Positions 1,344 through 25,419 of a stretch of 30,132 nucleotides of DNA are shown one piece after another; the first letter of the stretch is position 1; each line of letters opens with the position of its first letter. The stretch lies in contig JANKJI020000004.1 of assembly GCA_024626585.2 (NCBI GenBank), forward strand, positions 95,619,108 through 95,649,239, in the 5' to 3' direction. Made by a program: the position numbers and the translations under genes. This DNA is from Ginkgo biloba. Taxonomy: Eukaryota; Plantae; Ginkgophyta. Under the pieces are notes generated by a model that worked only from the letters and a program-made list of their open reading frames with translations, was not told the origin of the DNA and did not search any database.

Positions 1344-1433
1344 ATGGACATAGCTGCTACCACCCGGCTGGATGCCCACAATCAACCGCCCTTGTCTTAC
1401 TGCTATCGAATTGCTGATAACTTGCTCGAGCAG
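1344..1433 (+). CDS. AMSH: AMSH exon 1 (MDIAATTRLDAHNQPPLSYCYRIADNLLEQ)
   Basis: ATG at 1344 is the first in frame after TGA 1320-1322. Ends CAG|GTAAGA, phase 0. YRIADNLL matches plant AMSH1/3. Confidence 0.9.
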
Positions 1434-4400
1434 GTAAGATTATAACGGTTCCAGACAGTTATGTAATGGGAAATGTAAACAATACTCTGAAAATTTCAGA
1501 AATAGGGTATCATATCGATTACTTGGCATTCCGGCACTGAATTATGCTTCTTTTGATGGGTTTAGCTCGTGCCTCAGTTATGCTTGACTGACATTATCTG
1601 TATCAATGCTGTTGGGTTCTCTATCTTGTTAACTAGAGTTTAATTGTGGGTTGAGGTCAGGCGAGGCTTTACCGGGAGGAGAAGAATGTTATAGACCTGT
1701 ACATTATACTACTTAGATTTTCCAGGTATTGTATGCACAGAAACTACTGTCGTTTAAAATCTTAATAATTCCGTTGATCGTCAAATCAGAAGTGCACTTA
1801 GAGTGGATTACCATGTTAAACTGCGTTCCAGCAAGTAAATAGTTCCGTTCAATGTCTTGGTAAAATTGGGACTGTGTTAGATTTGCTCAGCTCATTATGT
1901 TAACTAAATTTCATCTGTAGTGCACCAGGACAACTGCAACATTTTTTTGGTGATTGTCTTCATAAAAATAACCATGGAGAGGGTTCTGTCAGGCGTTTAT
2001 GTTAACCTAAATTGTTTTTACCATGGGCTCTTGAATTTTATTACGATGATCCCTTTCAATTACGCACTTAGTCCGTAGGCTGAGTTTGCTTGCCATTAGG
2101 TTTAGTCCATAGGCGTAGATTACTTGCCATTAGGTTTGTCGTTTGCCAGCTTGGTGAAAACGATCGCACTACACCACTAGAACACCACCTTGGGGACAGT
2201 GACAAACTTCAGTAACAGTTGCCAGTTAAAATGTCTTACCTGCACCCCTGTTGTGTTGACTGTCTTACTAAAAGAGACCATAAAGTGGATTCCCACAGTT
2301 TGTTATGGTAAGTTGAATTTCAAAAAATTGTCTGCCAGATGAATTATCCAGGGCACCATTGCCGGTTTTACTTTGACATGGCCTACTTTTGTATTGTATT
2401 TTAGTACATGTATTGATTGACATTCATATTATTCTGTGTTTTTCAGTTTAGTTTCCAAAATTATACCTCAACATCAGGACTATCCTTCATTTGTTACCAA
2501 AGAGAAGTTCGGGTACTTGAAGGTAATATCTTTCTGATTTCAGGATTCTGTTAGTTTCTATATGTTGTAAAGCACTGGGCATCATTTTCATAATTCCTTC
2601 CTAAAGCATGGTAATTAGCTTCAAACATGCATAAGAAGTATCTTTTATTGGAAAGTTATTCTTAATTGAGATTGCTTGAGGATTACGATCATACTTCCTT
2701 CCTTATGAATGGTTCTTAGCTTAGGCCATATAGATGAAGAGTTTTTACAGTAAGTTTTGGTTTATAATCAAACTTATTGTATTCTTAATAGAGACTACGG
2801 GAAGTTGTGACTGAGTTGGATGCACTAAAACCAGAGGTACAAACACAAGTNNNNNNNNNNNNNNAACTATGCATATCAAAATGATAGTCAGAACGAAGAT
2901 TATGCACGTCTTACTTCTCTGCAGGAGGGTAGTATCTCTTGTGACTGGCCTGCTCAAAAGGATCAAGTTTTGCCAATGTATGACAGTCGAAAGGTATTAC
3001 AAATAGACATGCAACATTTTATATCTGGGCAAGTTGTACTCTTAAATCAAGTAACTCGGGTGCTTAATATTTAGTTGTTGTCATTATTCATCATTAGGCA
3101 TTACTAATGAGCTGGAATTAGTTCAACAGGGATATGAAAACACTGGAAAAACTAGTACAATACAAAATNNNNNNNNNNNNNNNNNNNNNNNNNNNNNNNN
3201 NNNNNNNNNNNNNNNNNNNNNNNNNNNNNNNNNNNNNNNNNNNNNNNNNNNNNNNNNNNNNNNNNNNNNNNNNNNNNNNNNNNNNNNNNNNNNNNNNNNN
3301 NNNNNNNNNNNNNNNNNNNNNNNNNNNNNNNNNNNNNNNNNNNNNNNNNNNNNNNNNNNNNNNNNNNNNNNNNNNNNNNNNNNNNNNNNNNNNNNNNNNN
3401 NNNNNNNNNNNNNNNNNNNNNNNNNNNNNNNNNNNNNNNNNNNNNNNNNNNNNNNNNNNNNNNNNNNNNNNNNNNNNNNNNNNNNNNNNNNNNNNNNNNN
3501 NNNNNNNNNNNNNNNNNNNNNNNNNNNNNNNNNNNNNNNNNNNNNNNNNNNNNNNNNNNNNNNNNNNNNNNNNNNNNNNNNNNNNNNNNNNNNNNNNNNN
3601 NNNNNNNNNNNNNNNNNNNNNNNNNNNNNNNNNNNGTCATGTTAGAGATTACTATTATATTCCAGTTTCTGTAGGTATGGCATAAGACCAAGCCACAAGT
3701 TTTGAACTTGGTGTGTGTGTTTTTGTCCTTGCGAGCAAATTTCACTTTAAAATTCTCTGTCCAAAATGATTTGGGGTTGCACCATGATAAAATGCACATT
3801 TGGCTTGTTTTTCATAGCTTTTGCACCATTGACAAGTATGGTGGTGTGCGCAAATAAATACATTTGAAATGTTTTCCTGCCAAATATTGTACAAATACTG
3901 TTATAGACCAGACTAGTCAAGCAAATTTGGCCTTGAAAACAGGAAAGCCAAGGAAATAAGCGAGGAAGTTGGCAGGTAGGCCCTATAGTTGTTAATAGAA
4001 CCGCTAGGAGTTGCGTTGATAACAAGAAGATGAAATTATTAAAGAACAAGTGGAAATCCCAGTCTAGGGCACCCCTAATGAAATAATAACATGTGGCAAA
4101 AGGCACATACATTAGTGATTGGGATGTGGGGCAGTTCCAGCACAACTTTAGCCAATCTATGAAAGTGTCACTACCCAGACTTGCTACTTATGGAATGCCA
4201 AGTTAGGGCTTAGCATTCCTTTGGCTCATCAACATTCTTTTTTTTTTTTTTTTATTCTTTTGGCTTTTTGGGCATTTTGAAGANNNNNNNNNNNNNNNNN
4301 NNNNNNGATCTCTTTATCTTCTATTGGGTTGAACTAAAGATGTCTTTAGAAGGCTGGCTTAACTCACAGAAGGACGTTGCATGCCCTAGTGTGATGTCAT

Positions 4401-7400
4401 CATTCTAGAAGTAGAATTGGTGTAGTAGTGCAAGGGACCCTTGGAAATCCCCAAAAATTGCTACAAGCACTTGCAAAGTAGAGTGCCCCTCTCTAAAGAT
4501 ATTTTCTATATTGGTTATTGGTTGGAGATTGGAGAGTGGTTGTCACAGGAATTGTTGTAGAAGTTTCTAACTAGCTACAGAAAGAAGTTGTTTCTAGAAA
4601 TTAGGGTTTTAGCAAGTGTCATGATCCTAAAGGAAGACTCATAAACTACAAGCAATGAACGCATAAATGTGGAAGTCCATGGAGACCTATGCTCTGAGGG
4701 CAAAGCATGTTAAGGGGGATGGCATGTTATGTCCCCAAATTANNNNNNNNNNNNNNNNNNNNNNNNNNNNNNNNNNNNNNNNNNNNNNNNNNNNNNNNNN
4801 NNNNNNNNNNNNNNNNNNNNNNNNNNNNNNNNNNNNNNNNNNNNNNNNNNNNNNNNNNNNNNNNNNNNNNNNNNNNNNNNNNNNNNNNNNNNNNNNNNNN
4901 NNNNNNNNNNNNNNNNNNNNNNNNNNNNNNNNNNNNNNNNNNNNNNNNNNNNNNNNNNNNNNNNNNNNNNNNNNNNNNNNNNNNNNNNNNNNNNNNNNNN
5001 NNNNNNNNNNTCAAGTTTTAACAAAATGCACCCCTCATTTCAAAATTTAGATTTGGTGGGCCGATAGAGGTAGAGGATTGGTTGCTCAAGTTAGAAACAA
5101 CAATTGATCAGGTTTATCAAGTTGGTTGAGCGTATACTCAACAAGAATTAAGATAGTAGTACAATTCTTGGAAGGTGAAGCATGCATGTGGGGATTAAAT
5201 TGGCTAAATAAGTATCTAATCAGGGATTACCTTTGGGCCTTTGAAACAAATTTCCTTAAAGAAGTATGATTAGATAGAGATTGAAGATACAAATATGGAA
5301 TAGAATTTAAATATTGCTTTCAAAGAGAATAGTTAGTTGTAGAGTGCACAGAAAAATTTGAGGCCATTTAAGAAATAGCAAAATTTCCAAGTGATGAAGC
5401 TCAGGAATGGTACATTGCCAATTTGAGACTAGAAGTAAGATGGAATAAGCTACAAACCTTGAAGGATGCAAATCACCTAGCCAAATAAGAAGAAGAAAGG
5501 CAACAAGCATATACAAGGTGGTATACCCAACCACTAGTCTCAAAGGAATCAAAGGAAGATGAAAAAGAAGATAATGAGATTAAAGAGAACATTGTTGAAG
5601 AACATAAAGGAGATGAGAATATAATTCTAAAGATAATGATGATCGGTTGTTCGAAGATGAAAACAAATTAGAGATTGTAAGGGAGAACGATAAAGGCAAT
5701 GATAAAGAGAAGTTACAGAAAGAGTCATTCATAGAAGAGATTCCTAAGGTAGAACTAGAAGCTAAGAACAATATGGAAGAAAAAGATAGAATTCCAAAGT
5801 GGTTCAACATGATCTATAACAATACAAATGTAAGGCTTAATAACGTTGAGTATACTCTTAAGCAAATCAATGGCGTGAAGGATGCTCTCATGAGAATCAA
5901 TGATCGACTTGATGAAAGTACTCTTAGGAATATCAATGTGCAATTACAAACAAGGAGGGACCAAAAGCCAAGATTAAGCCAAACAAGCCAAAGAACATCA
6001 CATGGAGAATAATTTAGGTACATTGCAAGAATGTATAGCATGGTANNNNNNNNNNNNNNNNNAGCTCGACCATACACTACAGTGAAGAACATGGAATAAC
6101 GTGCCATACCATTTCGAGAAAAGGACAAGAAAGATGATGATACGATAGAAAGTTGTGCCAAATCATGTCGAGAAGAACTCGAAGACCACAAGATATAGTG
6201 TCGGCACTCTGTTCAAGCACATGAAATGACTGACGAGTAAATAGAAAACCACATTGTAGCACATTGGTGAAATTAGAACTGAAGGACAAGAAGGTAGAAG
6301 CATATCGACACCCTNNNNNNNNNNNNNNNNNNNNNNNNNNNNNNNNNNNNNNNNNNNNNNNNNNNNNNNNNNNNNNNNNNNNNNNNNNNNNNNNNNNNNN
6401 NNNNNNNNNNNNNNAAAGGGAGAAGACAACTAAATTTATTATATTCAAGATCCTCACCTAGTATGGAGTACCAAGGAATATTGTAAGCGATCAAGATACT
6501 AAATTGATAAGCCACTTGTGGAAAGAATTTTTCCAAAGCTTGGGTACATAGTGGAACTTTAGTAGATGATCCTCAAATGGAGGGACAAATAGAAAGAATC
6601 AACGAAATCATGGAGGATATGTTGAGGTTGCATGTAGCGACCAAGCCAACCGGTCAGGAGGAGAAGCTTCCCTTTGTGAAGTTCACATATAACAATAGAA
6701 AACATTCNNNNNNNNNNNNNNNNNNTGGATATGATCCTCTCATCCCTTTAGATTGGATTTGAAAAACTTCAAAGGGCAGAGATAAGTATTGATGGAGATG
6801 TTGGAGCAAATGCAAGAGGAATTGAGAGAATGCCTAAGGAATATTGAAAGAGTTGAAGCTTGTGCCAAATTATAGATCAACATAGATTGCCAAGAGCATT
6901 TGAAGTGGGAGATATTGTTTAAACCGACTAGCTCTTTGTCCATAGGGAGGTGCACCAAGCTCTCACGAAGATATTGTAGGCCATTCCAAGTATTGAACAA
7001 AATAAATGAAGCAACTTATAAATTACAGTTACTAGCCCATGTTAAAATACATATAGTCTTTCATGTAAATTTCCTGAAGAAAACGTTATCTCAATTTGAT
7101 AATGTGATCCCTATTTTTGTGGATGTTCAAGAAGTGCAAGGAGTCCCTAATCCCACAAGAATACTAGATGAAGGAAGTAGAAAACAATGAAATAGAGAAA
7201 TCAAAGAATAACTCATGGAATGGTCTAAGAAGTCCATTGGAGAGCCCATGTTGGAGTTGACAATTTTTGTTCATGTAGTAGGCCTCATTGAGGACAATGA
7301 TCTCTCCACGATAGCGAGAGATGTTGTTGGACAATGTATTATAATTTATAATGTNNNNNNNNNNNNNNNNNNNNNNNNNNNNNNNNNNNNNNNNNNNNNN

Positions 7401-10400
7401 NNNNNNNNNNNNNNNNNNNNNNNNNNNNNNNNNNNNNNNNNNNNNNNNNNNNNNNNNNNNNNNNNNNNGAGAGAAATCAATCTAATGTGATTGTAATGCT
7501 TGGGCAGAACTGCCCCTTAATGGAGTCTCTTTCATTCTCTGGTTAATCTGTGCATATCTCTTGTGAATGGTTCCTCTTGTATGCCTGCTTGTTCGTGATG
7601 GATTTATCTTCCTGTTGGAAAAATTCTATCAACATTTGGCGTTGTTGTCCGTGTTCGAATCTAAAACCATACGCGTGATAAATATTTGGAGTTCAAGTCT
7701 CATTCGATCTTGTTGTAGATGGAGATGCCACTTTTTCTTCCCCAAGATCAAATTCTACATAGAGGGGCTCGCAAGAATCCTCATGGTGATCAGATTTAGA
7801 TAGGTATAAAGGAAATTCTTTTTATATATAGTGGGGATTTTGTGCAATGGGAGAAAATAGTTGTAGAAAGACGACAAGATTCTTCCATTAGTTTTGGAGC
7901 TCTTGTACATGTGAACATGAGGAGTAGCCTAATAAATGCTACACTTACATCTTCTTTACTGGAATCGACAAAAAGTAGTAGTGATCTTGTTGCTTATGGA
8001 TTGATACCAAAGTTTCTTGGAGGAGCATTGTGGCAAATTGCACAAAACGCAATGGCTAAGAATACGGGAATCCGTGGGTTATGTTCTATCCTTGATACTC
8101 TGGTGACTGATGCTATTCCAAAAACAACAGCAAGGAAAAATAAACGAATAATGAATACACAATCATATATCCAAAGACTAGTGGACAAAATCCTTCGTGG
8201 CGAGGATGCGTTGGAGTGCACTCAAAAGAGATGTTATCGGTCCACTTTGACATAAAAATAAATCATTCCCATTATGGATAGCGTGTAACCCAGCACAAGA
8301 ATTCTTTGATATTACAGTGAAGTAATCTCCATAGGAAGCAATAGTACAAAGGGAAATGTGAGTAGCCAATGCCAGGAGAGTGTCAACAGATTCCCAGAGA
8401 AGGTCTATAACTATTGGAGGAATTTCCACAACCGTTGGAGAGAATTCATGTTTATACATCTGAGAGAGTCCACAGCCATCGGAAGAATTGTCACAGCTCG
8501 TCGGAGGGCTCTTCATAATTCGTCAGCGATTTTGATGTCGGAGGTCTTTGAATACCATTGGAGGACATCCATCACCTGTTGGAGTTCCTGCCTATTCAAC
8601 AGAGACCAGTCATTTGTCAGAGGAGAAGTTCCATGTGTCGAAGGAGGGTGCTTTGATCACGTCGGCAAAAGGAAGCTACTCACGTCAAGCATCGGAGGGA
8701 GTGAATTGTTGGAGGAGAAGAGAGACTGCTCACACCGGGTGTCAGAGAGGGTTTCACGTCGGACAACATGCACCTCTCACATCAGATGTCAAAGCGCTCC
8801 CATGGAGAATTACAACGCCATGTCAAAGCAACACCATGTTGAAGTTTCTCATAGGAGAATAAATCAGCATCCAATAATAAATAAAAGGAAATACATGTAT
8901 TGAAAATTTTTTTATCAAAGAGTATAGTTGATTAAAATTCATTCAAGAGGGATACACTTTAGTCATATGGAACGGACTCATAGAGGAAGGTTATTTTGAC
9001 AAAAAAAAANNNNNNNNNNGAATATATTTATGTGAGTAGGTCAATGGGCCAAATGTAATGATGATAATTATAGTTTAGTTTTGATGAATGGATACCGATA
9101 ATTAATAGAGTTTCCTTAATTTTTTTACACCAATAATGATAGATATCTTAGTCAATGGAGGAATTATTCATAGAGCTGCATCAATAAGAAAATTTTTCAT
9201 AAATAAGTATAGCTTCATATTGATATTTAAGAGTCTATCTATCTGATATGTTATATGTCACCATATAGATATTTTATCCTAAATTTTATAATTTCTCTAT
9301 TCCAATAATGAGTCAAAGTCCACTAATGTTCAATCCAATAAGCCTTTAAGTGAGTCTTATTAGTGTGTCATTCTCCATCTAAGAATCGGTTATAGGTGCA
9401 CGTTAGTTTTAGTTTGATACCTTGTCAATTTATAGATTGGTATTCATATTGTACATTGAGTCATATAATGTTGTAGTTTTGTATTTCCATCGAAGATGGC
9501 TAGAAATTGTGAAGTAGTGCACCTGAAACTACCTGATAATTGCACTTTAAATATTGGTCTGAGATGACAATTGCGATATTAGTTGCAAAGGGCCTTGCAA
9601 CTATGTTAATGTTTGTGGATGACCTAGAACTTGATTATAGGAGAAATAATACTAGTTATAGTAACATAGTTATGAAGACAATAGAAAAAACCATCCTAGA
9701 GATGCAAAGAGACCAATTGACAATATCACCTTGGAGTTTTCTTACCCTGGATCTTTCTAGGGCTAAGGTTTTTCTTCAAGGCAAGAAAAAATAACCTCAT
9801 TATTATAATGATAGATAAAAGTGACCACTCAGCCTTCCACTACAGAGCTAAAAGGAACATCTGAATAGTGAAATCACAATAAATTTAGAGTAGTAAGCAA
9901 AATGGGTGCCTCCTCCTTTAAAAATTGGATGGAAATAAAGAGTAGAGAGAATAATTAATGCTTCACCCCTTATAATTAGATTACAGTAGGGAGTAGAGAG
10001 AAAAATGGGTGCCTCTTCCTTAATGAAAATGTTGCATTAAAATTAAAAATGACTGATGTGATGGACTACACGTTTGATGGATGGAATCTTTACAAAATCC
10101 CCTATATCTAGTGTGATGGCCTATATGAATGGAAACTGTTGTGGGTTGTAACCCAAAAATATTGCTAGATGGCATCAACACCATAGGGATTCTTCTAACT
10201 TCAACCAAGGTGGATAACAAGGCTAGTTACCTAGACATTCTGGAAGAAGATGAAGGTAGGGATCCAAACTATTTTTCACTTATTTTCCTCAAGACGAGAC
10301 AAAGGTTTAGGTGTGGGGGAGTGTTGGACGGTCATATTTTTGTAATAAATGACTTTATTATGTATTATAATGAGGATTTAGATGGATGATTAGTAATTGA

Positions 10401-13400
10401 GTTTTCTAATGACCCCTAACACCTATATATGTACTATATAATTATCGATCTAAGATATTATAGAATAGAGAGGGAAGAAGTCATGGATGTAATTCTTAGG
10501 GAATTCCTAGGTTTAGGACTTTCCCTCATCTAATAGAATCTTTGTTCTCATTATTGTGCATTTCTAGTGAATGGTTAGGTGAGTTATCCTCCTATTGGCA
10601 AACCATAGCCAACATAATTCATCAAAAAATTATTTCCTAATTCGATTATTTGGGCATCCAAAATGTCAAGAGTCTCTTAGTAGTGTTTTAGAAAAAGGAA
10701 TTCTAAAGGACATAATAGAAAAAAGAGGAGGACAGAGGATAAACTAGAGAACATGAAAGAAGAATAGAAGAAGAAAGGAGATGAATTTTATTATTATATT
10801 GAGAAGAATCAATCTCCCCTTTTATAAAATAATATAATCTATATAATTTATTGAGACACTTAGGATGAGGAGGAAAGAGCCACTTGAAGACAAGTAGGAT
10901 AAAGCCACTAAGAGTAGAGTAGGTAAAATCCACTCAACCAAGAGGAGGATANNNNNNNNNNNNNNNNNNNNNNNNNNNNNNNNNNNNNNNNNNNNNNNNN
11001 NNNNNNNNNNNNNNNNNNNNNNNNNNNNNNNNNNNNNNNNNNNNNNNNNNNTTATGGGCGTGCTTTTGTATGGGCTAGGGTTAAAATGTACTTGGTTGGA
11101 TTGTATAACTATTAGGTTGAAATGATACCCATTATTTTGTTAGCCATACGGGTTGAAAGACGCCCATGGTGACTTTCAAGTGGAAAGAATGCTTACTGTA
11201 CGATTAGTCATCTGGTACTATAAATTAATATAAATGGGTTGAAAGGATACCCATAGGAAGGCGCCATAATTTAATTTAATTAAATATTGCTATTCAAGGG
11301 TGGAGTCTTTTCGGGATTTCTAATGCCAAAAAGGGTTGAAATGATATCTATGGCTTGACACCCTTATTGACATTGGTTGAAGAGATGGACTTTAGCATAG
11401 CAATCATAGCTAGTGGGTGTTGATGATGCACATGAAGATGTCACCAAAGTTTTGGGTGCTAGTGCAAGAAGCCCTTAAAGTCATCCCCACGGTCAATAAT
11501 GGATGTTATTTCTCCATGTCATTGTCCCTTAGCTTTAGCAACCTTATCTATGTACCTTATGATGCGTGCATGAGTATATTATATGTGCTAATGCTGGATG
11601 TGTGCATGTTGGAGCATGTTTGTGTTGTAGGTATAGGGTAGTGAGTTGTAAATATTGTGAAATATCAATCCTTTATGTGTATGTCTAAAGTGTATCGGTT
11701 GCAATGTAGACCTCATTTTGCTTTTGTGCATTTTTGAGGAAATATGTTTGGATTCATTTTTCTTATATGTTTGCTTCTTCTTATTCTGTTATGCTTATTT
11801 TGTATTTTGCTTGCGATTTCTTGTTCTTGAATTTCTCCTTTTTGTCTATGTTTTTAAGGTGATTTTTTTCCTCCTTATTTTGACCTAGATTTCTTATTTA
11901 TAGTAAGGACTCTAATCACCTATATGGGCTTACTAATTCAAGCAACCAAACCTTTGGTAAAGAACAAGATAACTGTTAATCCCTAGTAGCTATGACCGAT
12001 CTGCTAGATTCTGCGTCACAACCTTGCATTAGCAAGGGTGCCAGGCACAAGTCTATTTCAACCCATCGTCAGCACTAGGATAACCCTATAAAGATACAAT
12101 ATGCATCCCTACTAGCAGTTTATATTGATTTTTGGTTTCAAACCCTAGGGTTACAACAACAAACCCTAGACCAGAAAACAATAGGCCAAACCCTTATGGC
12201 TACGACAATAGTCTACATAGACTCATGGCTGCAACAATAAACCATAATCCCTATAGCTATATTGATAGACTATAGCCTGTAGCTACAACAACAGATTGAA
12301 ACCCTATGGTTGCAACAATAGACCATAGAAAATCGGTAAGAGGATAAGCAAGAGCACCAACTCAGTTCTCTTAGGGAAAGGCAAATTCATACTGCAAGTA
12401 AGCCCAANNNNNNNNNNNNNNNNNNNNNNNNNNNNNNNNNNNNNNNNNNNNNNNNNNNNNNNNNNNNNNNNNNNNNNNNNNNNNNNNNNNNNNNNNNNNN
12501 NNNNNNNGATTGGGTGCCTAGATATGTTCTTGAAAGAACAATTACACTAAGCCTCTCTACAAATCCTTTCAATATTATACTTCATTTATTTTCTCCCATT
12601 GAGTGTACCATTGATATGGGATTTCGTGTAGTGTGGATGCAAGTGCATTTATCCTGGTCATATTGATTTTTTCTCCAGTTTAAATCCAGTGTTTGAATCA
12701 TCATAGTAGTCAATGATTCTTGAAAAGTATTGCAAATAAAGTTTAGTTTTAATCGAATGAACTTATGTGGAACATAATGAACTTTTTATCTTCAATTGTT
12801 GGATCCTGACTTCTATTCTCTATTTGTTTGAATGGTGTGAACAGATTGGGACAGGTTGGGCAAACTGGTCTTTCAAGAGTCAATTTTGGTAGTTTGGACT
12901 TTGATGCAAGGCCTCTTCAAGTTGGTGGTTCCTGTTCTCTGTCTTCTGTTAATACTCATGTCCATATTGTTAGAGAACCTTCTCCATTGCCAGTTCTTGC
13001 TTATGTAGAAAACTTGCCTGCTGGACTGGATGCGGTGTCCCATGTTTCTCATTTCAATGTTGCTGATTCAAGACTTGGGCCTGCTAAATCCTCACAATAT
13101 GTCATGTCCCGATCTATGAGTCCTCAGTATGTACAAATTGTAAGTTTCTGAGAGTTGCCCTTGCCCACATTTTTAAATTGACATTTTTCATGCTTGCTTG
13201 TACAATGTATGCATGTGCTGGATGTGGCATTTACAAGGTTCCAGAAAGTTGGTGATTTGTTGTGCGATTCATTTTCAATGGTGAGACTTGGTGTGGAAGC
13301 CTTCTATCCATGAGAATAATGGATGATTTATTGGGATCTTATTTGCAGTCATCAAATATGATGGAAGATTTCTTGAAACTTGCCAAATCAAACACGGAGA

Positions 13401-13876
13401 AAAACCTCGAAACATGTGGTGTTCTTGCAGGTTCACTTGTAAGCTTATGAAACCATTTTCTCAACTAGAGTGTTATAATCTGCCTATATGTAAAATATTT
13501 TCTTATGCATATGCATTGGGCTTCAAGAGGTTAAAATATTATTTTGTGTTGCTTTCTCCATTGGCAGAAAAAGGGAACATTTTATGTTACGACTCTTATA
13601 ATTCCAAAACAGGAGTCAACTTCTGATTCAGTAACTTGTGATATATCATGCGTATGGTATCCTTTGGGAGTTCTATGCATCATAATTTTCCCCTAGAACA
13701 GTTCTAGATTATGTGTAGCTTGAAGCTAACATGCATAACTAAGCTGCTCTACAAAAATGTAGAATGCAACTAATTTATATTATTGATGTATTGTGTGACA
13801 GTGTCAGACAATGAATGAGGAAGAAATATATGCTGTGCAGGAGGAATGTTCTCTTCTACCTCTTGGATGGATTCAT
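1344..13876 (+). CDS. AMSH: AMSH-like ubiquitin thioesterase (JAMM/MPN+ deubiquitinase with N-terminal MIT/USP8-dimerisation domain); partial gene span, 3' exons not seen
   Basis: Eight clear GT-AG exons plus two candidates join in compatible phases, apart from one frame offset across a 14-N run in exon 4. They translate to recognisable plant AMSH sequence: YRIADNLLEQ / ARLYREEKNVIDLYIILLRFS / RLREVVTELDALKPE / PSPLPVLA / NTEKNLETCGVLAGSL / FYVTTLIIPKQESTSDS / CQTMNEEEI...LGWIH. Confidence 0.93.
1661..1725 (+). CDS. AMSH: AMSH exon 2 (ARLYREEKNVIDLYIILLRFS)
   Basis: TCAG|GCG acceptor, AG|GTATT donor, phase 0 to 2. Strong match to AMSH3-type ASIYREEKNVVDLYIMLLRYS. Confidence 0.93.
2447..2522 (+). 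CDS. AMSH: AMSH exon 3 (SLVSKIIPQHQDYPSFVTKEKFGYLK)
   Basis: TTTTTCAG|T acceptor, AAG|GTAATA donor, phase 2 to 0. Matches SLxSETIPxHRDY. Confidence 0.9.
2792..2993 (+). CDS. AMSH: AMSH exon 4 (RLREVVTELDALKPEVQTQV-gap-NYAYQND...SISCDWPAQKDQVLPMYDSRK)
   Basis: TAATAG|AGA acceptor, AAG|GTATTA donor. RLRxVxxELxxLKPE and xWP motifs present. The frames either side of the 14-N run (2851-2864) differ by 1 nt. Confidence 0.82.
3130..3168 (+). CDS. AMSH: Probable start of AMSH exon 5 (GYENTGKTSTIQN...), running into the N-run 3169-3635
   Basis: CTAAT branch-point-like motif at about 3104, CAACAG|GGA acceptor, phase 0 as exon 4 requires, open until the gap. No conserved motif is visible. Confidence 0.5.
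5040..7324 (+). mobile_element. Decayed Ty3/gypsy chromovirus internal region (gag, start of RT, integrase, GPY/F region, chromodomain)
   Basis: Gag-like PIEVEDWLLKLE and VVQFLEGEA (5060-5190). YRHP at the RT start (about 6300). Integrase SDQDTK..HLWK..F and PQMEGQIERINEIMEDMLR..LPFVKFTYNN. KLSRRYCRPFQV..YKLQL..IHIVFHV. Chromodomain-like PTRILD..EWS. Most of RT/RNaseH may sit in the 100-N gap 6315-6414. The 5' LTR may be at about 3990-4400 (not verified). Confidence 0.88.
7325..7634 (+). repeat. 5' LTR
   Basis: Starts TGTTGGAC, ends ATCAACA. Shares tgtgcat..gtgaatggtt and ttatcYtcctRttgg with 10322-10614. Partly N. Confidence 0.72.
7637..7659 (+). promoter_or_regulatory. Decayed primer-binding site, tRNA-Asp type
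   Basis: TGGCGTTGTTGTCCGTGTTCGAA begins after a 2-nt spacer following the LTR end. It matches the plant tRNA-Asp complement TGGCGCCGTTGCCGGGGATCGAA (recalled) at 17/23 positions; three of the differences are C>T. Confidence 0.6.
7719..8255 (+). pseudogene. CLPX: Processed fragment of plant ClpX (AAA+ Clp protease ATP-binding subunit), C-terminal half
   Basis: One frame from ATG 7719: ...[53 protein letters not shown]...TSSLLES..SSDLVAYGLIPKFLG/GALWQIAQNAMAKNTGIRGLCSILD...KILRGEDALE. This matches plant ClpX [62 protein letters not shown]. A single TAG at 7797. Confidence 0.9.
8411..8790 (+). repeat. Degenerate array of about 15 copies of a (c/t)RTYGGAGG-like motif
   Basis: ctattggagg, ccgttggaga, ccatcggaag, tcgtcggagg, atgtcggagg, ccattggagg, ctgttggagt, ttgtcagagg, gcatcggagg, ttgttggagg and others, mostly 15-45 bp apart. 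Confidence 0.55.
10309..10321 (+). promoter_or_regulatory. Polypurine tract
   Basis: AGGTGTGGGGGAG immediately before TGTTGG at 10322, preceded by CTCAAGACGAG. Confidence 0.7.
10322..10614 (+). repeat. 3' LTR
   Basis: TGTTGGAC...AGCCAACA, internal TATA-like tatata, diverged homology to 7325-7634. Confidence 0.7.
11078..11390 (+). repeat. Dispersed repeats of about 19 bp (GGGTTGAAAnGATACCCAT) with variable spacers
   Basis: Clear copies near 11114, 11150, 11236 and 11333; weaker ones near 11078 and 11375. Confidence 0.55.
12140..12330 (+). repeat. Degenerate tandem repeat of about 28-30 bp (AACCCTATGGCTGCAACAATAGACC-like)
   Basis: About 6 imperfect copies, e.g. aaaccctagggttacaacaac, cccttatggctacgacaatag, accctatggttgcaacaatagacc. 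Confidence 0.6.
12644..12690 (+). CDS. AMSH: Candidate 47-nt AMSH micro-exon (CIYPGHIDFFSSLNPV)
   Basis: YPGHIDF resembles AMSH1 YPSNIDF. CAAG| acceptor and |GTTTGA donor give the phase-2 end needed by the 12845 exon. Splice sites are weak. Confidence 0.45.
12845..13139 (+). CDS. AMSH: AMSH linker exon (LGQVGQ...REPSPLPVLAYVENLP...VADSRLGPAK...PQYVQI)
   Basis: ACAG|A acceptor (phase 2), ATT|GTAAGT donor. PSPxPVLA and VADxRxGPA are plant AMSH motifs. Confidence 0.88.
13349..13438 (+). CDS. AMSH: AMSH MPN exon (SSNMMEDFLKLAKSNTEKNLETCGVLAGSL) with the catalytic Glu
   Basis: TTTGCAG| acceptor, |GTAAGC donor, 90 nt. ETCG motif of JAMM deubiquitinases. Confidence 0.96.
13568..13630 (+). CDS. AMSH: AMSH MPN exon (KKGTFYVTTLIIPKQESTSDS)
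   Basis: GGCAG| acceptor, |GTAACT donor, 63 nt. LIIPKQESTSDS is conserved. Confidence 0.96.
13802..13876 (+). CDS. AMSH: AMSH MPN exon (CQTMNEEEIYAVQEECSLLPLGWIH) ending in the first JAMM His
   Basis: GACAG| acceptor, CAT|GTAAGT donor, 75 nt. LGWIH motif. Confidence 0.96.
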
Positions 13877-15165
13877 GTAAGTAGAGTCTGAGCTCTAATT
13901 GACTTGTTTTTCTTGTGGTCCTCTGCAATCTTTGCTGGAGCATATTCACGGCTGTATTTTTGACAGTAAATGTTTTGAAATCCATAATTTTTTTCTTTTT
14001 TAATGTCGTTACAGTTGTCTATATGTCTTCTTTTGTCTCACAACGTATATCTCTGTCTCTCTCTTTCATACAGAGATCATTTTCTCAATTTCACCCCTGG
14101 CTGTATTCCATTTGGAGAACTTCCGGAAGGGTATAAGAGTGTTTCCAAAATGGCAGCTTATATTGATATCTTTGATTACTGTAGTAGCTCAACCTCAAAA
14201 TATTATGTGCCAGAGGTGCTTACAAAAGTATTTCCTTGACCCAGACACTTTGTTGTGAAGGGTGTGATTCATTTAAATGTAAATATTACTTACAACACAA
14301 AAAAATAGGTGGCTAAAGGCACTCTATCAGCACTCTTAAGTGCAAACTGTTTCTATTCAGGTGAGTCAGGTGTACAACACAAAAATTGACGTCCACTGAC
14401 AAATAACACGTACTTATAAAAAATCACATAACATAACAGGCCTTTAAAATTCATCTTTATTCAACACCAACACACACCCAGCAAACAACACGCATACAGA
14501 AGGATTTGGGTGACATGATCCTTGCTTGTCCTATGAAAAACTTGGGAAATTGGCATCAATAAAAGGATATGTCAAGGCCGAAGCAATTTAGGACATTCCC
14601 CAAATGGGATGTTGTGGGAGGCCATTCAAGAAATATACCATGCCAACCCTGTTGGTCTTCTGCAAGTTTATTGGAACTGTTTCAGCCTGAAATATGGTAA
14701 AAGCATAGTTGTAGGAAAAAGGCACAACTGTCGTTACAAACTGTGGCATGTTTGCCAAGTGCATTTTCAGTGTCATAAACCATGAGAAATGGGCGTTGTA
14801 GCCTTGCAAATCCAAACATGGATTGGCAGTGGACAAATGAGGCCCTGGATTGACTGTATAAAAGATTGAAACAAGGAAATTTAAGGAAAAGGCACAAACT
14901 AGGGGGATTGCTTCCCTCGCCCTGTTTGTTTGAGAATTTCCTTGATGATAAATTGATAATTGACTTTTACAACAGAAAACTACCTTGCTTGACTTTAACT
15001 ATTCATGCTTGAGGGCTTCAAGAAGGCTCCTTTGTAATGTTGCCTATTCCCAAGTGCAAAGGAATNNNNNNNNNNNNNNNNNNNNNNNNNNNNNNNNNNN
15101 NNNNNNNNNNNNNNNNNNNNNNNNNNNNNNNNNNNNNNNNNNNNNNNNNNNNNNNNNNNNNNNNN

Positions 15166-15710: not shown

Positions 15711-17080
15711 TGTAGGATGAGCTAGGGGACTCAGACGACGAAGGGGAACTCTTGGATGACAAACAACAACCAAAAGTCAGAGAGTTATCTGACGACCCTT
15801 AGATGGGATTTGAGGATTATACATTAGTAGCATAGTGACTAGCATATTATTGTATAAGGAGTTATCATTGGGGTTCAGTGCATCAATCGTCCTCAACGAA
15901 CACTCGTTGCTTGTACAGGGTTTCCCATCACAGAGGGCCCCCTATTATTTTCTGGAGATAGCATTAGCATAACATGGGCTTGGTCATCATACTACTCTCC
16001 ATCTGATCTCTTTGGATGATCTAGTTGTACATTATTTTCCCCGATTAACGTGAAGCTTTTGTTATTGCATATCTCTGTTGTCTTGATTCTTTGTGCAATT
16101 TGTCTAGTGTACATAGAATGGTATTTGGAATTTCTCCAATCTCACTGTTCATTTAGGCTCGTAACCTAAAATTAGTATTCAACATCTGGCATTGTTTTCG
16201 GTCTAACTAGACATAGGAGATCCCTAATTTTCCCAATCACGGGCAGTGATAACGGCCTTGATGGAGATTGGTGGAACATTGGTAGAAAATTTATACGTTA
16301 TTGGTCAAAATTTGATGGGCATTCCTATTCCTCTCCACCAATAGTGCAACGTACGCCATGTTGAAGAAGTTGAAACCTGTGAGCTTTGGAACCAACTTGT
16401 TGAAGATTACATTTTGGAATAAACCTAGAACAAATGTGTGACGATTAAACACTATCTGTGGGACGATTAGACATAATGTGTGAGACAAATGGATACTATC
16501 TCTAAAACGAATGGACACTATTTGTGAGACAAACGAACAAACACTATTTTTGAGACAAAGGAACAGTGTCTGTGAAACGAACGAACACTTTCTATGAGAT
16601 GAATGAACACTGTGTATGAAACAAATGGACACTGATTTTAAAAAATAGTTAATTACAAGAAAAAAACAAATAACCACAAATAGTAGTGATTGTTGGAAAA
16701 ATTCTAAGTTGAGATAATTCTAAAAAGATCTAGAAATATGACAACTACTATAGTTCAAATTATCTTAGGTAGCTACCGAAACTAATGATGGGACACTCTC
16801 CCATAGATTTTCCTTAGAGACATTGTTCCATCACTTCCCTTCATGACAAAATTTTGCCATCGAGGCTAGCATCGTCGAAAATTCTATTATATAAGACCAT
16901 GATTTGCAAAATTCATGACATGAGTGCCAACACGGATGGTAGTACAGAAGGAACTAGTTAGTGAAGAATTGATTATACTTGCAAATGATTGTTAGAAATG
17001 GGCACTAAAGCACCAATCAACTTTGATATTAAAGTCTACTGCTGGAAAATGGGTGTTGAGGCGCTAATCGACTCTGATAT
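15711..17080 (+). mobile_element. Truncated gypsy-like element: putative LTR 15711-16113, weak PBS, internal region with protease remnant
   Basis: TGTAGG...GTGTACA, then TGGTATTTGGA (weak Met-PBS-like). VEALIDSD at 17054-17077 resembles the retroviral protease ALIDSG motif. It is cut by the next insertion. Confidence 0.45.
16434..16633 (+). repeat. Degenerate tandem repeat of about 22 bp (ACACTATCTGTGAGACAAATGG), about 9 copies
   Basis: Periodic acacta/acagtg..tgaRac..atgg/acga units. Confidence 0.7.
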
Positions 17081-17945
17081 TGTAGTCCTTAGAGGGGACC
17101 AAGCTCCATTATTCTTAGGTGGATCACTTCCAAGCCTTGAGGCCACACACAAATCTTCTCTTTGCCTCCCAATTAGTTCTACATGGCTCCCTTTTACACT
17201 CTTTCCNNNNNNNNNNNNNNNNNNNNNAGAAAGCTACTTTATTTGTTTCTTCTTGTTTTATTCCCTCTTTTCAGAAGTGCACAAAGCAGTGCTTTATTCC
17301 AAACTTTATTTATGAAGTCAACTACTATTTTATTCCTTCCTAATCCTGTCTTCCATGATGGTGCCACCTTTACCCAACAAAAATCAGATGGATCTTAGTT
17401 GAATTTAAATTATACTTATGTTATCTAATGGGCCATTAGGTCTCAAGGGCTCATAACATCACCCCCCATCCTGAAGATGCTTTGCCCTCAAACCATGCAA
17501 TGTGAAAGATGGATACCTCTTGAATATGTCATCATATTCCCATGGTGCATCTTTTACAAGTAGATTTCTCCATTTGGTTAGGTATTCAGTCCTTGATTTA
17601 TTTCTTAAGATTTTGTCCCTGAACTCTAGTATTGCTTTCGGTACCAAAATCAGCTTACCTTCTTCATCCAATGGCAACGACTCCATTTGTCCCACTACAT
17701 TCTGTCCTAATTTTTCTTTTAAGCATGACACATGGAATGCATTATGCACCTTAGTAGTTATAAGCATCTCGAGAGCATAGGTTACATCATTAATTTTCTT
17801 AGCAATCTTCTAGGGTCCATAAGACCTAGCAAACAACTTCTCCTTACCTCCTTTCTTCAATGATGATTGTTTATATGGCTACAAATGTACAAATACCCAA
17901 TGATTCATATTAAAAACTCTCTTTGTTCTCTACTAATCTGTAACA
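17081..17945 (-). mobile_element. 3' end of a Ty3/gypsy chromovirus: integrase C-terminus, chromodomain, PPT, 3' LTR (17081-17458)
   Basis: Minus strand PYKQSSLKK..EKLFARSYGP..VHNAFHVSCLK..PLDEEGKLILVPKAILE..EYLTKWRNL..DAPWE. PPT GGATGGGGGGTGA abuts TGTTATGA...GACTACA. Confidence 0.9.
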
Positions 17946-19049
17946 GCCTTGCCTTAAGCCTATAACTATAGTTAGCAATTTACATAGAAATCATTATCAT
18001 CAATACATNNNNNNNNNNNNNNNNNNNNNNNNNNNNNNNNNNNNNNNNNNNNNNNNNNNNNNNNNNNNNNNNNNNNNNNNNNNNNNNNNNNNNNNNNNNN
18101 NNNNNNNNGGATAACTATTTATATGATATATCCTTAACTCCTTTATTAATCTCTACACTACCCTATGTAGGAAGTGGATATCTCTATCACTAATAATCTC
18201 TATTGGACATTTATAGTTTGTTATAATGTTATAACAAAAGAAAAATGGCAACTTAGTTGATTTTATATAATAAGAGACCACTTATGACTCTTGGATAGGA
18301 TCCTAAGGCAATGTTTAAGGTCAAATATATAAATACGATGTGTTAAAGCATATTCATGTAATTATTTTATCACAATTAATAAAATCAGCCTACTAACCTC
18401 TATTTGTGGAAGTCTTTATTAATTAGAGCACATCTATGGCATCGATCTTAATAAACATAGCCGCTAAAATCCTCCTTTTACTAGAATGATCAACTCCCTA
18501 ATTAATAATTTCTTCAAAGATAATTGTTTTCTCAAAAACACCTTCACCTATAATCTGTGTAGGGTTCGCAAATTTGTGAATGTACTATAATTTTTACAAT
18601 GCTTATTACAAGGATATAGAGTACACCACATTCAGAAGTACATCATGCAAGTGCAATAAGTAATTCATCATAAATACAGGAGGTGGCCCTTACACATGCC
18701 CTAGACATAAACAATGCCTTACAACCAATAAGCATATCATATTTCTAGTTCTAAGCCCTTATAAATTTTGTCCTAAACATGCGCAATAGAAATTCTAAGA
18801 CCTCCAAAACAAGATTTAATTTTGGAATGGAGGAGGAAATTCAAGGTTAAAAACACTGTATAGAAACTCTCTCTTTGTAGGAAAAATTTGATGCTTCTTA
18901 CAATAAACTGATCTATCTCGTGACTGATATTTAAGTTAGCAACCCACACTCTTTTAAGAATGCATATCTATGCCTAGGTAATAGACTAAGTTGTTCCTTG
19001 TATAATAATGATGATAATATAACCATAATGTGTCAATTAAGTAATTTTA

Positions 19050-21050: not shown

Positions 21051-22955
21051 GCTCAAGGATTTTCTTAAAGTTGTTTCCACCAATTTGCAAAATGCAAAGG
21101 CTAACAATAAATGNNNNNNNNNNATTTCTTGAAAACCTTTCTTTTTCAATGAAGTTTATATTATACTTTATTAATCCTTAATTCAATTAAGTTTAATTAA
21201 TTTAATGTTGAGTAAACATTTTTCTATATAATTTTAATCAAAATCATTCTTATATACTCTTCCAAACATAAGTATGTTCTCATTGTAACTTGCCACTAAG
21301 ATATTGTCGCGAAGGTTTCTACGAATTGTAATATGTACCAATGAATTTGTTACNNNNNNNNNNNNNNNNNNNNNNNNNNNNNNNNNNNNNNNNNNNNNNN
21401 NNNNNNNNNNNNNNNNNNNNNNNNNNNNNNNNNNNNNNNNNNNNNNNNNNNNNGCTAGTATTAAATGTGGTTGTACTTGGCATTTAGTGCAGTTGTTCTT
21501 CATTATTTAATGCAGTTCTATGTAGGTCTTCGACCAACGACTTTGACCAGTAATGTTTTTGTTGCTGATGTCATTACTATTGTTGTTGATGTCATCTTTA
21601 TGTTGTCACATCGTCATTTGGACTGCCATGTCATCATTTGGACTGCCACATCATCATTTGGAAATTTGGCCAACGACATAACATTGTTTTGACTTGGTCA
21701 ACATTATTTCACTGTTGTTTGAGCAATTTTGACCTTCCTTAAGGCAGTTTTGTCCTTCCTTATGGTAGTTTTTCCCTACCTTACGGTGGCTTTGTCCTTA
21801 CAATAATTTTGCCCTACCTTAAGGAGGTTTTTCCTTTCTAAGGTGGTTGAACTGGATTTCATCTTCCATTCACATCATTCCCTCTTTGGATGTCACGTCG
21901 TCATTTGTTGTTGTTAGATGAATCATGTCGTTTGTTTGCGTTATCAGTTAGAGATGGATATCTTGCAAACACTTCTTTTTTTTTTTTTTTTATTTAACAC
22001 CTAGTCTAACTGTTGGAAAAGATTGTTATTATTTATGACCACTATGAAGTGCCACATTTCTTTGTGGTACCCAAGAAATATACATATGACTTAAGAACAT
22101 CAAGCACTTACAAAATAATCGAAGTCTAAATGTCATTAGTTATCAATATAAGCCTAGATGTGTAGAATTGAGATTTTTCAGAAATATTGGTTGGATATTA
22201 AAAAAATGAGTTTTATGAAAGATCTGCACATTTCAAGTATTAATTGTCTTATGGGTAAAAGAACAACTTTATATGTTTTCTCCATTGATTTTGAAGATGA
22301 GGTGATAATAAAAGAAAAGCAAAGACAAGATGTAACGTGAATTGATAATGATCCTCATCTTAAGATAAGACATTTAAAACAATTTGCTTACTTAAAGATT
22401 AAAACAACACATTTTTAAGGATTACGTTCCTCACAAGAACTTTCAAACATTCATCTTGACTCAAACTCTAGTTGAAGTGATAAGAGAATGGAATCTATAT
22501 TCAATGTACAACTAATCCCAAATATACTACAGAACCCTCACAGATGAGTTCACTAAAAANNNNNNNNNNNNNNNNNNNNNNNNNNNNNNNNNNNNNNNNN
22601 NNNNNNNNNNNNNNNNNNNNNNNNNNNNNNNNNNNNNNNNNNNNNNNNNNNNNNNNNNNACTTGTGAATTGGGCATGGGGCCCACACAGGGTCGTGTCAT
22701 CTGTATGGGGTTGGTTGGTTGTCAGATGAGTTCACTAAAAATCGTGATATGGGAGTGAATGTCATTGCCCTTTCCAAATCAAATAGTGCCCTCACATTGG
22801 TAGGCAATTTCAGTTTTCTTAGCTATCATAAATAAAATTGGAGCATTCTCATTTATGTACTTGTCCAGTTCTTTGTCTACATGGGTGCAAATTTGATTTC
22901 CAACTTCACCTTAATTTCTTGCCAAGTGTTGCACTTTGAATTGGTGGTGTTACAG

Positions 22956-25172: not shown

Positions 25173-25281
25173 NNNNNNNNNNNNNNNNNNNNNNNNNNNN
25201 NNNNNNNNNNNNNNNNNNNNNNNNNNNNNNNNNNNNNNNNNNNNNNNNNNNNNNNNNNNNNNNNNNNNNNNNCAGTTATCA

Positions 25282-25419
25282 CCGTTTGTTGACCTGAGCA
25301 AACATAGAACATCATTTGCTAAGAATTGAGCAAACATAGAACACCGTTTGTTGAGAATTGAGCAAACATAGAACACCATTTGTTGAGAATTGAGCAAACA
25401 TAGAACAACGTTTGTTGAA
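25282..25419 (+). repeat. 32-bp tandem repeat (CCGTTTGTTGAGAATTGAGCAAACATAGAACA), about 4.3 copies
   Basis: Near-perfect head-to-tail copies with no spacers. Confidence 0.9.

What the first reader, a model, noticed from the sequence alone, without database searches (positions are those of the whole stretch)
7719..8255. Intron-less ClpX fragment in the gag position of a non-autonomous LTR element, in frame with an upstream ATG
Seen: ATG 7719 lies about 60 nt after a tRNA-Asp-like PBS. It opens one frame (MEMPLFLPQDQILHRGARKNPHG...) that runs to 8255, broken only by one TAG where homologues have Gln (CAG>TAG). The frame carries the ClpX RKH-loop region (RKN here), the IGF ClpP-docking loop (ISF here) and the sensor-II GxRGL. 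It lacks Walker A/B. About 46 codons including the arginine finger are deleted in frame at a GGA/GGA junction, with a further in-frame deletion of about 3 codons. Established: plant CLPX genes are intron-rich, and LTR elements can transduce mRNA by template switching. Inference: a spliced CLPX mRNA was captured and propagated as cargo. The preserved frame suggests the chimeric, ATPase-dead protein may once have been expressed from the LTR; alternatively the element may be a source of siRNAs against CLPX.
Basis: partly seen in the sequence, partly recalled or inferred. Interest (0 to 1): 0.78.

Follow-up and report, generated by a model that had tools for sequence, protein, structure and literature searches.

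The report
Spliced ClpX fossil in Ginkgo retrotransposon
A piece of the spliced message for the ginkgo mitochondrial chaperone ClpX sits just behind the primer site of an old retrotransposon, occurs in several diverged genomic copies, and has decayed like junk DNA, so it is most likely an ordinary fossil of gene capture by a jumping element rather than a working new gene.

Summary
Window 7752-8222 is a fragment of ginkgo CLPX (closest protein Gb_29683, 105 of 140 codons identical). It crosses three inferred exon borders without introns and lies about 100 nt behind an LTR end and an Athila-type primer site, inside an intron of an AMSH-like gene. Genomic contigs show at least four sibling pieces, 12-20% diverged, with the same leader-ClpX junction; the long ones share the 138-nt deletion. 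So it is family cargo, not a lone pseudogene. The protein idea is not supported. Conserved residues are hit as often as variable ones (16 of 73 vs 19 of 67; working homologues 1-2 of 73). One stop is what neutral decay predicts. The frame is likely broken by two compensating frameshift deletions (13 and 8 nt), and no poly(A) read matched this copy at 99% or more. A matching 3' LTR, a target-site duplication and the 'gag position' were not shown. Best reading: a CLPX mRNA piece captured by template switching, amplified a few times as a non-autonomous element, then decayed by C>T/G>A changes. This is a Bs1-like event of a kind reported by the hundred thousand in gymnosperm genomes.

The parts
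2994..12815 (+). Host intron (about 9.8 kb, approximate ends) of an AMSH-like deubiquitinase gene; the element lies in it in sense orientation
   Evidence: AMSH homologues align to exons at 1344-1433, 1658-1723, 2439-2522, 2792-2993 and again from 12816; downstream exons match Gb_28140, JAB domain, AMSH/Sst2 structures
6417..7324 (+). Decayed integrase C-terminus and purine-rich tract of an upstream Ty3/Gypsy (chromovirus-like) element, abutting the LTR; probably a separate element
   Evidence: SH3_Tf2-1 E=8e-15 and Integrase_p58_C; high contig depth
7325..7634 (+). LTR (TG...CA, 310 nt, 114 of them masked) upstream of the cargo
   Evidence: Right end fixed by contigs that stop matching at 7634 with mixed flanks (5 in X2, 3 in X15); left end read from the sequence and from likeness to the start of 10322
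7637..7654 (+). Primer-binding site, Athila type (tRNA-Asp/Asn), decayed
   Evidence: 10 of 13 match to the published Athila PBS core, all 3 mismatches C>T; it follows a TATCA pentamer and an AT-rich spacer as described for Athila
7655..7751 (+). Element leader with ATGs at 7719 and 7725 in frame with the ClpX piece
   Evidence: the leader is covered by more contigs than the ClpX piece (X2 summed depth 267-331 vs 48-120)
7752..8222 (+). Intron-less CLPX mRNA fragment (Gb_29683 residues about 360-571): TAG at 7797; exon borders crossed at 7800, about 7869 and 7968; 138-nt deletion at 8019-8024; 9-nt deletion at 8115-8117; likely 13-nt and 8-nt deletions at 8145-8174
8223..9386 (+). Non-coding internal region; 8225-8495 is shared with the sibling copies, the rest is low-copy; the frame from ATG 7719 ends at TGA 8253-8255
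   Evidence: no Pfam hit in six frames of 8230-9009 or 9020-10330
9387..10321 (+). High-copy 3' internal region ending in a purine tract; whether it belongs to the same insertion is not shown
   Evidence: summed contig depth in the thousands to tens of thousands; no Pfam hit
10322..10614 (+). Candidate 3' LTR (TG...CA, 293 nt), related to but well diverged from 7325-7634; no target-site duplication
   Evidence: Best-scoring tile of the window for the first LTR; 2 of 1000 shuffles reached its score; 68% column identity with long gaps

Best explanation
This is a decayed, intron-less fragment of ginkgo CLPX mRNA behind the LTR and primer site of an Athila-type element, likely captured by template switching during reverse transcription and then likely copied a few times as non-autonomous cargo. 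Shown: the fragment, its donor, the loss of three inferred introns, the shared junction and deletions in sibling copies, and the lack of purifying selection on the protein. Inferred: reverse transcriptase left the element RNA about 100 nt after the primer site, copied about 640 nt of co-packaged CLPX mRNA and switched back near 8222. Short repeats (GGA, AT, CCAA, TCT) then seeded internal deletions in the master copy. Helper elements supplied Gag/Pol for a small burst of copies. The copies were then methylated and decayed by C>T/G>A changes. This copy now sits, probably rearranged, in a stack of retroelement remains in an AMSH intron and most likely makes no protein.
For: Donor: 105 of 140 codons identical to Gb_29683, next best 95 of 140, among 116 homologues; 7 residues shared with Gb_29683 against all 5 other gymnosperm-type proteins, 1 the other way. 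Poly(A) reads of X24 break off at exactly the two deletions and continue in CLPX sequence. Introns: breakpoints in 115 homologues cluster at Gb_29683 residues 375/376 (2 proteins), 398 (2), 432 (11), 467 (9), 488 (5) and 528-530 (3), with Val-initiated (GT-compatible) inserts and exact exon skips; the window crosses 375, 398 and 432 without inserts. Family: X2 records 9-12 and X7 records 17-18 bridge leader and ClpX at 12-20% difference; X1 record 3 (7737-8495, 113 differences, 6 gap letters) and X3 record 10 (7652-8493, 136 differences, 4 gap letters) span all the deletions. Neutral decay: 16 of 73 conserved vs 19 of 67 variable codons changed (p=0.44), against 1-2 of 73 vs 18-33 of 67 in five working homologues; a neutral simulation at 12% gives 75% identity (observed 75%) and 1.4-1.8 stops. 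Polarity: 29 places with A/T in the window where reads have G/C, against 7 the other way (p=0.0003). Expression: of 61 X24 reads laid, 0 were 99% or more alike and 59 were under 90%; X21 had no depth on 7719-9247.
Against: No paired LTR or target-site duplication in this copy. The long sibling contigs stop matching near 8495, and the 270-300 nt they carry upstream of the primer site were not displayed as matching either LTR (most rows were not shown). Ginkgo's own CLPX gene structure was not seen; introns are inferred from annotation variants, mostly of flowering plants. Microhomology at the two capture junctions could not be tested because no cargo-free relative was retrievable. The run of frame-keeping indels is unusual taken alone (about 0.004). 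Distinct contigs may be alleles, so the locus count is a floor of about three to four, not a census. Only about 6% of X24 and 2% of X21 were read.
Confidence: 0.78

Rival explanations
1. The capture is as described, but the master element was under selection to keep an open frame from ATG 7719 through the cargo. The selection would be for translatability of the RNA (escape from nonsense-mediated decay, or packaging coupled to translation), not for ClpX residues.
For: The 138-, 9- and two 3-nt indels are multiples of three, and the 13+8 pair cancels (joint chance about 0.004). Two further sibling deletions, 231 nt (DNA contigs of X1 and X2, also X15) and 171 nt (X15 only), are multiples of three. 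The sibling pieces with few gaps keep the ATG linker in register.
Against: The finding was picked because its frame looked open, out of what is probably a very large pool of captured fragments. Counted as single events, 4 of 6 in frame has p=0.10, and two of the four are 3-nt indels of the slippage kind. Siblings also show 1-nt losses at 8202, 8224 and 8227, and one X1 contig with the 231-nt deletion has an extra base in the ATG linker.
Confidence: 0.1
2. A chimeric, ATPase-dead ClpX fragment was once made from the LTR promoter and selected as a protein, for example as a decoy for ClpP or ClpX.
For: In-frame ATG and recognisable RKH-loop, IGF-loop and sensor-II regions.
Against: No sparing of conserved residues. 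The IGF Gly, the following Pro and the Ala of the GAR motif are all changed. Among five displayed sites where no X2 contig carries the mRNA letter, four change the residue, three of them conserved ones. The N-terminal 359 residues, which would hold the targeting sequence (position recalled, not tested), and the core of the AAA fold are missing.
Confidence: 0.04
3. The cDNA piece entered a resident element by another route (LINE machinery or double-strand-break repair using a cDNA) or the copies arose by DNA-level duplication, so LTR template switching was not the cause.
For: No paired LTRs or target-site duplication; the locus is a stack of nested, truncated elements; junction microhomology untested.
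Against: The piece is internal to the mRNA with no poly(A) and no 3' end. It is in sense orientation right behind the primer site. Sibling similarity starts at the primer site and ends near 8495, and does not run into the upstream integrase in the pieces displayed.
Confidence: 0.08

Closest known systems
Maize Bs1 (LTR retroelement carrying fragments of three host genes; PMC13317346 and PMC5131818, passages)
   Same: Partial exonic host sequence inside an LTR element, a few copies sharing the same switch points, including an ATPase gene fragment.
   Different: Bs1 holds three donors and is reported as transcribed and translated; here one donor, neutral decay, no matching poly(A) reads, and LTR pair not shown.
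LTR-mediated retrocopies by microsimilarity-dependent template switching (Tan et al. 2016, PMC5131818, passages)
   Same: Partial, intron-less mRNA piece replacing internal element sequence, no poly(A), secondary retroposition, genic insertion site.
   Different: Those are young with both LTRs and measurable junction microsimilarity; this one is 12-20% diverged from its siblings and the junctions could not be tested.
TE-captured gene fragments in gymnosperm genomes (PMC13477047, abstract passage and section 12)
   Same: Old capture of coding fragments by LTR elements in a giant gymnosperm genome; about 400,000 fragments per genome reported, mostly one fragment per element.
   Different: That survey counts exon matches; this case is a multi-exon spliced piece with a traceable series of shared deletions. 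Its supplementary tables were not read, so a ginkgo CLPX entry there cannot be excluded.
Athila lineage of Ty3/Gypsy and its non-autonomous deletion derivatives (bioRxiv 10.64898/2026.03.20.713144, passages)
   Same: TATCA pentamer, AT-rich spacer and tRNA-Asp/Asn primer site at the LTR junction; no coding domains left.
   Different: LTR here is about 300 nt against the 1-2 kb default for Athila in that paper; the motifs were defined in Brassicaceae; no RT or integrase is left to classify by.
Plant mitochondrial ClpX (Ginkgo Gb_29683)
   Same: Donor; 105 of 140 aligned codons identical.
   Different: Lacks residues 1-359 (Walker A and B), the 46 codons from the FIGRF Arg, and the C-terminal 34 residues; carries a stop and 16 changes at conserved sites.

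Membership tests
LTR-captured retrocopy (Bs1/Tan type) | Host-gene fragment with introns removed | tested here: met
   Three inferred exon borders crossed without insert; borders come from annotation variants of homologues, not from the ginkgo gene itself
LTR-captured retrocopy (Bs1/Tan type) | Partial mRNA, no poly(A) tail | tested here: met
   Residues about 360-571 of 605 only; element sequence follows directly
LTR-captured retrocopy (Bs1/Tan type) | Further copies sharing the switch points | tested here: met
   X2 records 9-12, X7 records 17-18; X1 record 3, X3 record 10
LTR-captured retrocopy (Bs1/Tan type) | Flanked by two LTRs of one insertion with target-site duplication | tested here: inconclusive
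   5' LTR and primer site present; downstream LTR only distantly related, no duplication; sibling flanks not retrievable
LTR-captured retrocopy (Bs1/Tan type) | Microhomology between element and mRNA at both junctions | not testable with these tools
   No genome held; no cargo-free relative or parent cDNA could be fetched
Athila (Ty3/Gypsy) | tRNA-Asp/Asn primer site after a TATCA-type LTR end | tested here: met
   10 of 13, all mismatches C>T; five other places in the window match with up to 3 mismatches, none with C>T changes only
Athila (Ty3/Gypsy) | Athila-type RT/RNase H/integrase domains | tested here: not met
   No Pfam hit in six frames of 8230-9009 and 9020-10330; expected for a non-autonomous element, so the label is 'Athila-like'
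Functional ClpX | Walker A, Walker B and arginine finger | tested here: not met
   no Pfam AAA hit for the read-through product
Functional chimeric retrogene | Purifying selection on the protein | tested here: not met
   16 of 73 conserved vs 19 of 67 variable codons changed; controls 1-2 of 73
Functional chimeric retrogene | Transcribed and translated | tested here: inconclusive
   0 of 61 laid poly(A) reads at 99% or more, 1 at 95-99%; no X21 depth on the fragment; small shares of two runs read; no ribosome profiling
siRNA-producing captured fragment (donor-gene silencing) | Small RNAs from the fragment and raised methylation of the donor exons | not tested
   No small-RNA or methylation data were laid

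The most novel reading that the evidence does not exclude
The master element kept an open frame from its leader ATG through foreign cargo across a series of deletions while the amino-acid sequence drifted freely. That would mean selection on translatability of a non-autonomous LTR RNA itself (decay avoidance or translation-coupled packaging), readable as a fossil series in a small ginkgo family.
Probability: 0.1. Interest if true: 0.6.

Novelty: new member of a known kind. Interest (0 to 1): 0.27.

Why it matters
As it stands it is a clean, traceable example of mRNA capture by an LTR element in ginkgo: known donor, lost introns, shared deletions, neutral decay. It adds a case, not a mechanism; gene capture is reported at about 400,000 fragments per gymnosperm genome (PMC13477047). 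It is also a caution: an open-looking frame in an old gymnosperm repeat is weak evidence of function. It would matter more if the run of frame-keeping deletions proved to be selected, since that would show a translation requirement on non-autonomous retroelement RNA that can be tested across thousands of captured fragments.

Tried and rejected
No whole genome is held, so no direct copy count. The repeat finder found no LTR pair, and low-stringency blastn did not link the two LTRs; only pairwise alignment did, weakly. The metagenome scan returned three intron-less plant-type contigs at 74-76% and 77 more distant ClpX loci at 44-52%, and no genomic plant CLPX with introns among the 80 kept of 584 confirmed. 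No RNA holder was listed by the run search. Rfam found nothing in 7469-9009. The 197-codon frame at 8310-8903 has no Pfam hit and is treated as non-coding. Exon skipping as the cause of the 46-codon loss was rejected: it runs from residue 450 to 495, while the exon borders are at 432, 467 and 488. A lone processed pseudogene was rejected because siblings exist and there is no poly(A). The nucleotide check of the shifted 8150-8173 segment failed for L001 and L002 (anchor not found) and gave only 10 of 24 for L003. The bacterial promoter scan, a 31-residue PDB search and the Atlas search were uninformative. No dating was attempted beyond the 11-20% sibling differences. Earlier findings: none by sequence or place. 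Literature: searches for ClpX + retrotransposon + plant (20 listings), Ginkgo + retrotransposon + retrocopies (1 listing), Ginkgo + Athila (3 listings) and CLPX gene structure (5 of 6 listed) showed no title or abstract on this element; only listings were seen.

Full report
Host and setting. The window is ginkgo DNA: exons at 12837-15063 match Gb_28140, a JAB-domain, AMSH-like protein. Full-length AMSH homologues also align at 1344-1433, 1658-1723, 2439-2522 and 2792-2993 (9 of the 150 listed proteins were used). The finding therefore lies in sense orientation inside an intron of about 9.8 kb that is filled with retroelement remains. No assembly was available, so copies were studied through contigs and reads of public runs (8 of the 24 listed runs were laid).

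The observation. ATG 7719 opens a frame to TGA 8253-8255 with one TAG at 7797. The product matches solved ClpX structures (best E=4e-9) and plant ClpX. The best donor is Gb_29683: 105 of 140 aligned codons are identical, against 95 for the next of 116 homologues, and 7 residues side with it against five other gymnosperm-type proteins while 1 does not. The 140 codons leave out the codons at the deletion and insertion edges. Homology covers residues about 360-571, so Walker A (257) and Walker B (321) are absent, and the 46-codon gap begins at the Arg of FIGRF. Poly(A) reads of run X24 leave the window sequence at 8019/8020 and at 8116 and continue in CLPX sequence, which confirms both deletions against the host mRNA. 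One correction: 8150-8173 fits parent residues 546-553 best in a shifted frame, implying 13-nt and 8-nt deletions that cancel. This is likely, not proven; the score margin is small (16 vs 11) and the nucleotide check was weak.

Is it spliced? The ginkgo gene itself was not seen. In 115 homologues, alignment breakpoints cluster at Gb_29683 residues 375/376 (2 proteins), 398 (2), 432 (11), 467 (9), 488 (5) and 528-530 (3). Several are inserts starting with Val, as retained GT introns give, or exact skips from 432 to 467 and from 467 to 488. The window crosses 375, 398 and 432 with no insert. 467 and 488 fall in the large deletion and 529 at the edge of the small one. The large deletion does not match exon borders, so it is not exon skipping. 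There is no poly(A) and the last 34 codons are missing.

The element. Contigs with mixed flanks stop matching at 7634, fixing the LTR's right end. It is followed by a primer site matching 10 of 13 bases of the published Athila core, all three mismatches C>T. Upstream, the LTR abuts the integrase end of a chromovirus-like element. Downstream, a purine tract and an LTR-like segment lie at 10322-10614. That segment is the best match to the first LTR in the window, and 2 of 1000 shuffles scored as well, but it aligns at only 68% of columns with long gaps, well below the 80-89% between sibling copies, and there is no target-site duplication. So this copy is probably rearranged, and 'between two LTRs' and 'gag position' remain unshown.

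Copies. Among the pieces displayed (24 shown, 339 not shown), X2 records 9-12 and X7 records 17-18 run from the leader into ClpX at 12-20% difference. X1 record 3 (7737-8495; 113 differences, 6 gap letters) and X3 record 10 (7652-8493; 136 differences, 4 gap letters) span every deletion with almost no gaps (24 shown, 23,259 not shown), so the deletions arose before amplification. Other contigs show further losses of 231 nt (X1, X2, X15) and 171 nt (X15 only). The leader and the region after 8225 are covered more deeply than the ClpX piece, as expected if cargo-free or further-deleted relatives exist; depth is not a copy number. The long siblings stop matching near 8495. A floor of three to four sibling loci is reasonable, since alleles may be counted twice.

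Selection. At 73 codons conserved in at least 95% of homologues, the copy has 16 changes; at 67 variable codons it has 19 (Fisher p=0.44). Five working homologues change 1-2 of 73 and 18-33 of 67. Random mutation of two plant CLPX coding stretches at 12% gives 75% residue identity, as observed, and 1.4-1.8 stops, with a 45-58% chance of at most one. Of 50 places where X24 reads differ, 29 have A or T in the window against G or C in the reads and 7 the reverse (p=0.0003), the signature of decay in methylated DNA (established knowledge); reads of a second paralogue contribute to part of this count. Of 12 displayed X24 differences, 8 change the residue; of the 5 where no X2 contig has the mRNA letter, 4 do. 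These are small numbers picked by the tool for support, but they suggest the master copy was not under protein selection either. The one oddity is frame-keeping: four indels in multiples of three plus a cancelling pair (about 0.004 jointly, 0.10 counted as 4 of 6 single events), and two in-frame sibling deletions. Against this stand the selection of this finding for its open frame, 1-nt losses at 8202, 8224 and 8227 in siblings, and an extra base in the ATG linker of one X1 contig.

Expression. Of 61 X24 reads laid from about 6% of the run, none was 99% or more alike, one was 95-99%, one 90-95% and 59 under 90% (the host mRNAs). X21 (about 2% read) had no depth from 7719 to 9247. One X15 contig matches 7834-8088 with one difference, which intron pre-mRNA or DNA would equally give. 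No small-RNA data were examined, so the siRNA idea stands untested.

Mechanism and comparison. [quoted passage not shown] Capture of coding fragments is reported at about 400,000 per gymnosperm genome (PMC13477047, abstract passage and section 12; supplements not read, and they may list ginkgo donors). LTR build-up in ginkgo introns is described in PMC9364684 (passages). Four literature searches (listings only) showed no description of this element.

Verdict. A real, modestly amplified, Athila-like non-autonomous element carrying a spliced CLPX fragment that has decayed neutrally (confidence 0.78). New member of a known kind; interest 0.27. The boldest reading left open, selection for an open frame regardless of its amino acids, has probability about 0.1.

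Noticed in passing
window 1344-13879 (+): AMSH-like gene whose first four exons (1344-2993) are missing from the public model Gb_28140, which starts near 12837 and runs into intron-like sequence after 13876. The model looks mis-annotated across the 9.8-kb intron.
   Followed up: yes
window 7310-7330: The Athila-type LTR starts 3 nt after the purine tract of a chromovirus-like integrase end, as if it replaced or landed in the first bases of that element's own 3' LTR.
   Followed up: partly
window 7637-7661: The primer-site likeness seems to run past 18 nt into a GTTCGAATC stretch resembling a tRNA T-arm complement (recalled, not tested); Rfam gave no hit.
   Followed up: partly
window 7803-7975, run X15: One contig of a guessed RNA run skips 171 nt starting at GT, seen in neither DNA run of that call; it may be a deletion copy or a cryptically spliced transcript of a sibling.
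   Followed up: no
window 7866-7922, runs X24 and X15: Reads of a second CLPX paralogue match only this short conserved stretch.
   Followed up: no
window 9387-10330: Very high-copy region with broken reading frames and no Pfam hit, ending in a purine tract; possibly an extra 3' ORF of an abundant Athila-like family.
   Followed up: partly
window 4689-4742, 5011-6300 and 17459-17990 (-): Further chromovirus-like remains: an element end with purine tract, a decayed gag-like stretch (by eye, no Pfam hit), and an SH3/chromodomain integrase end on the minus strand.
   Followed up: partly
window 22674-22922 and 27188-27434; 25280-25418; 16435-16634: A 209-nt direct repeat pair at 85% identity (possible LTR pair, 4.5 kb apart) and two tandem arrays of 32-nt and 22-nt units.
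   Followed up: no
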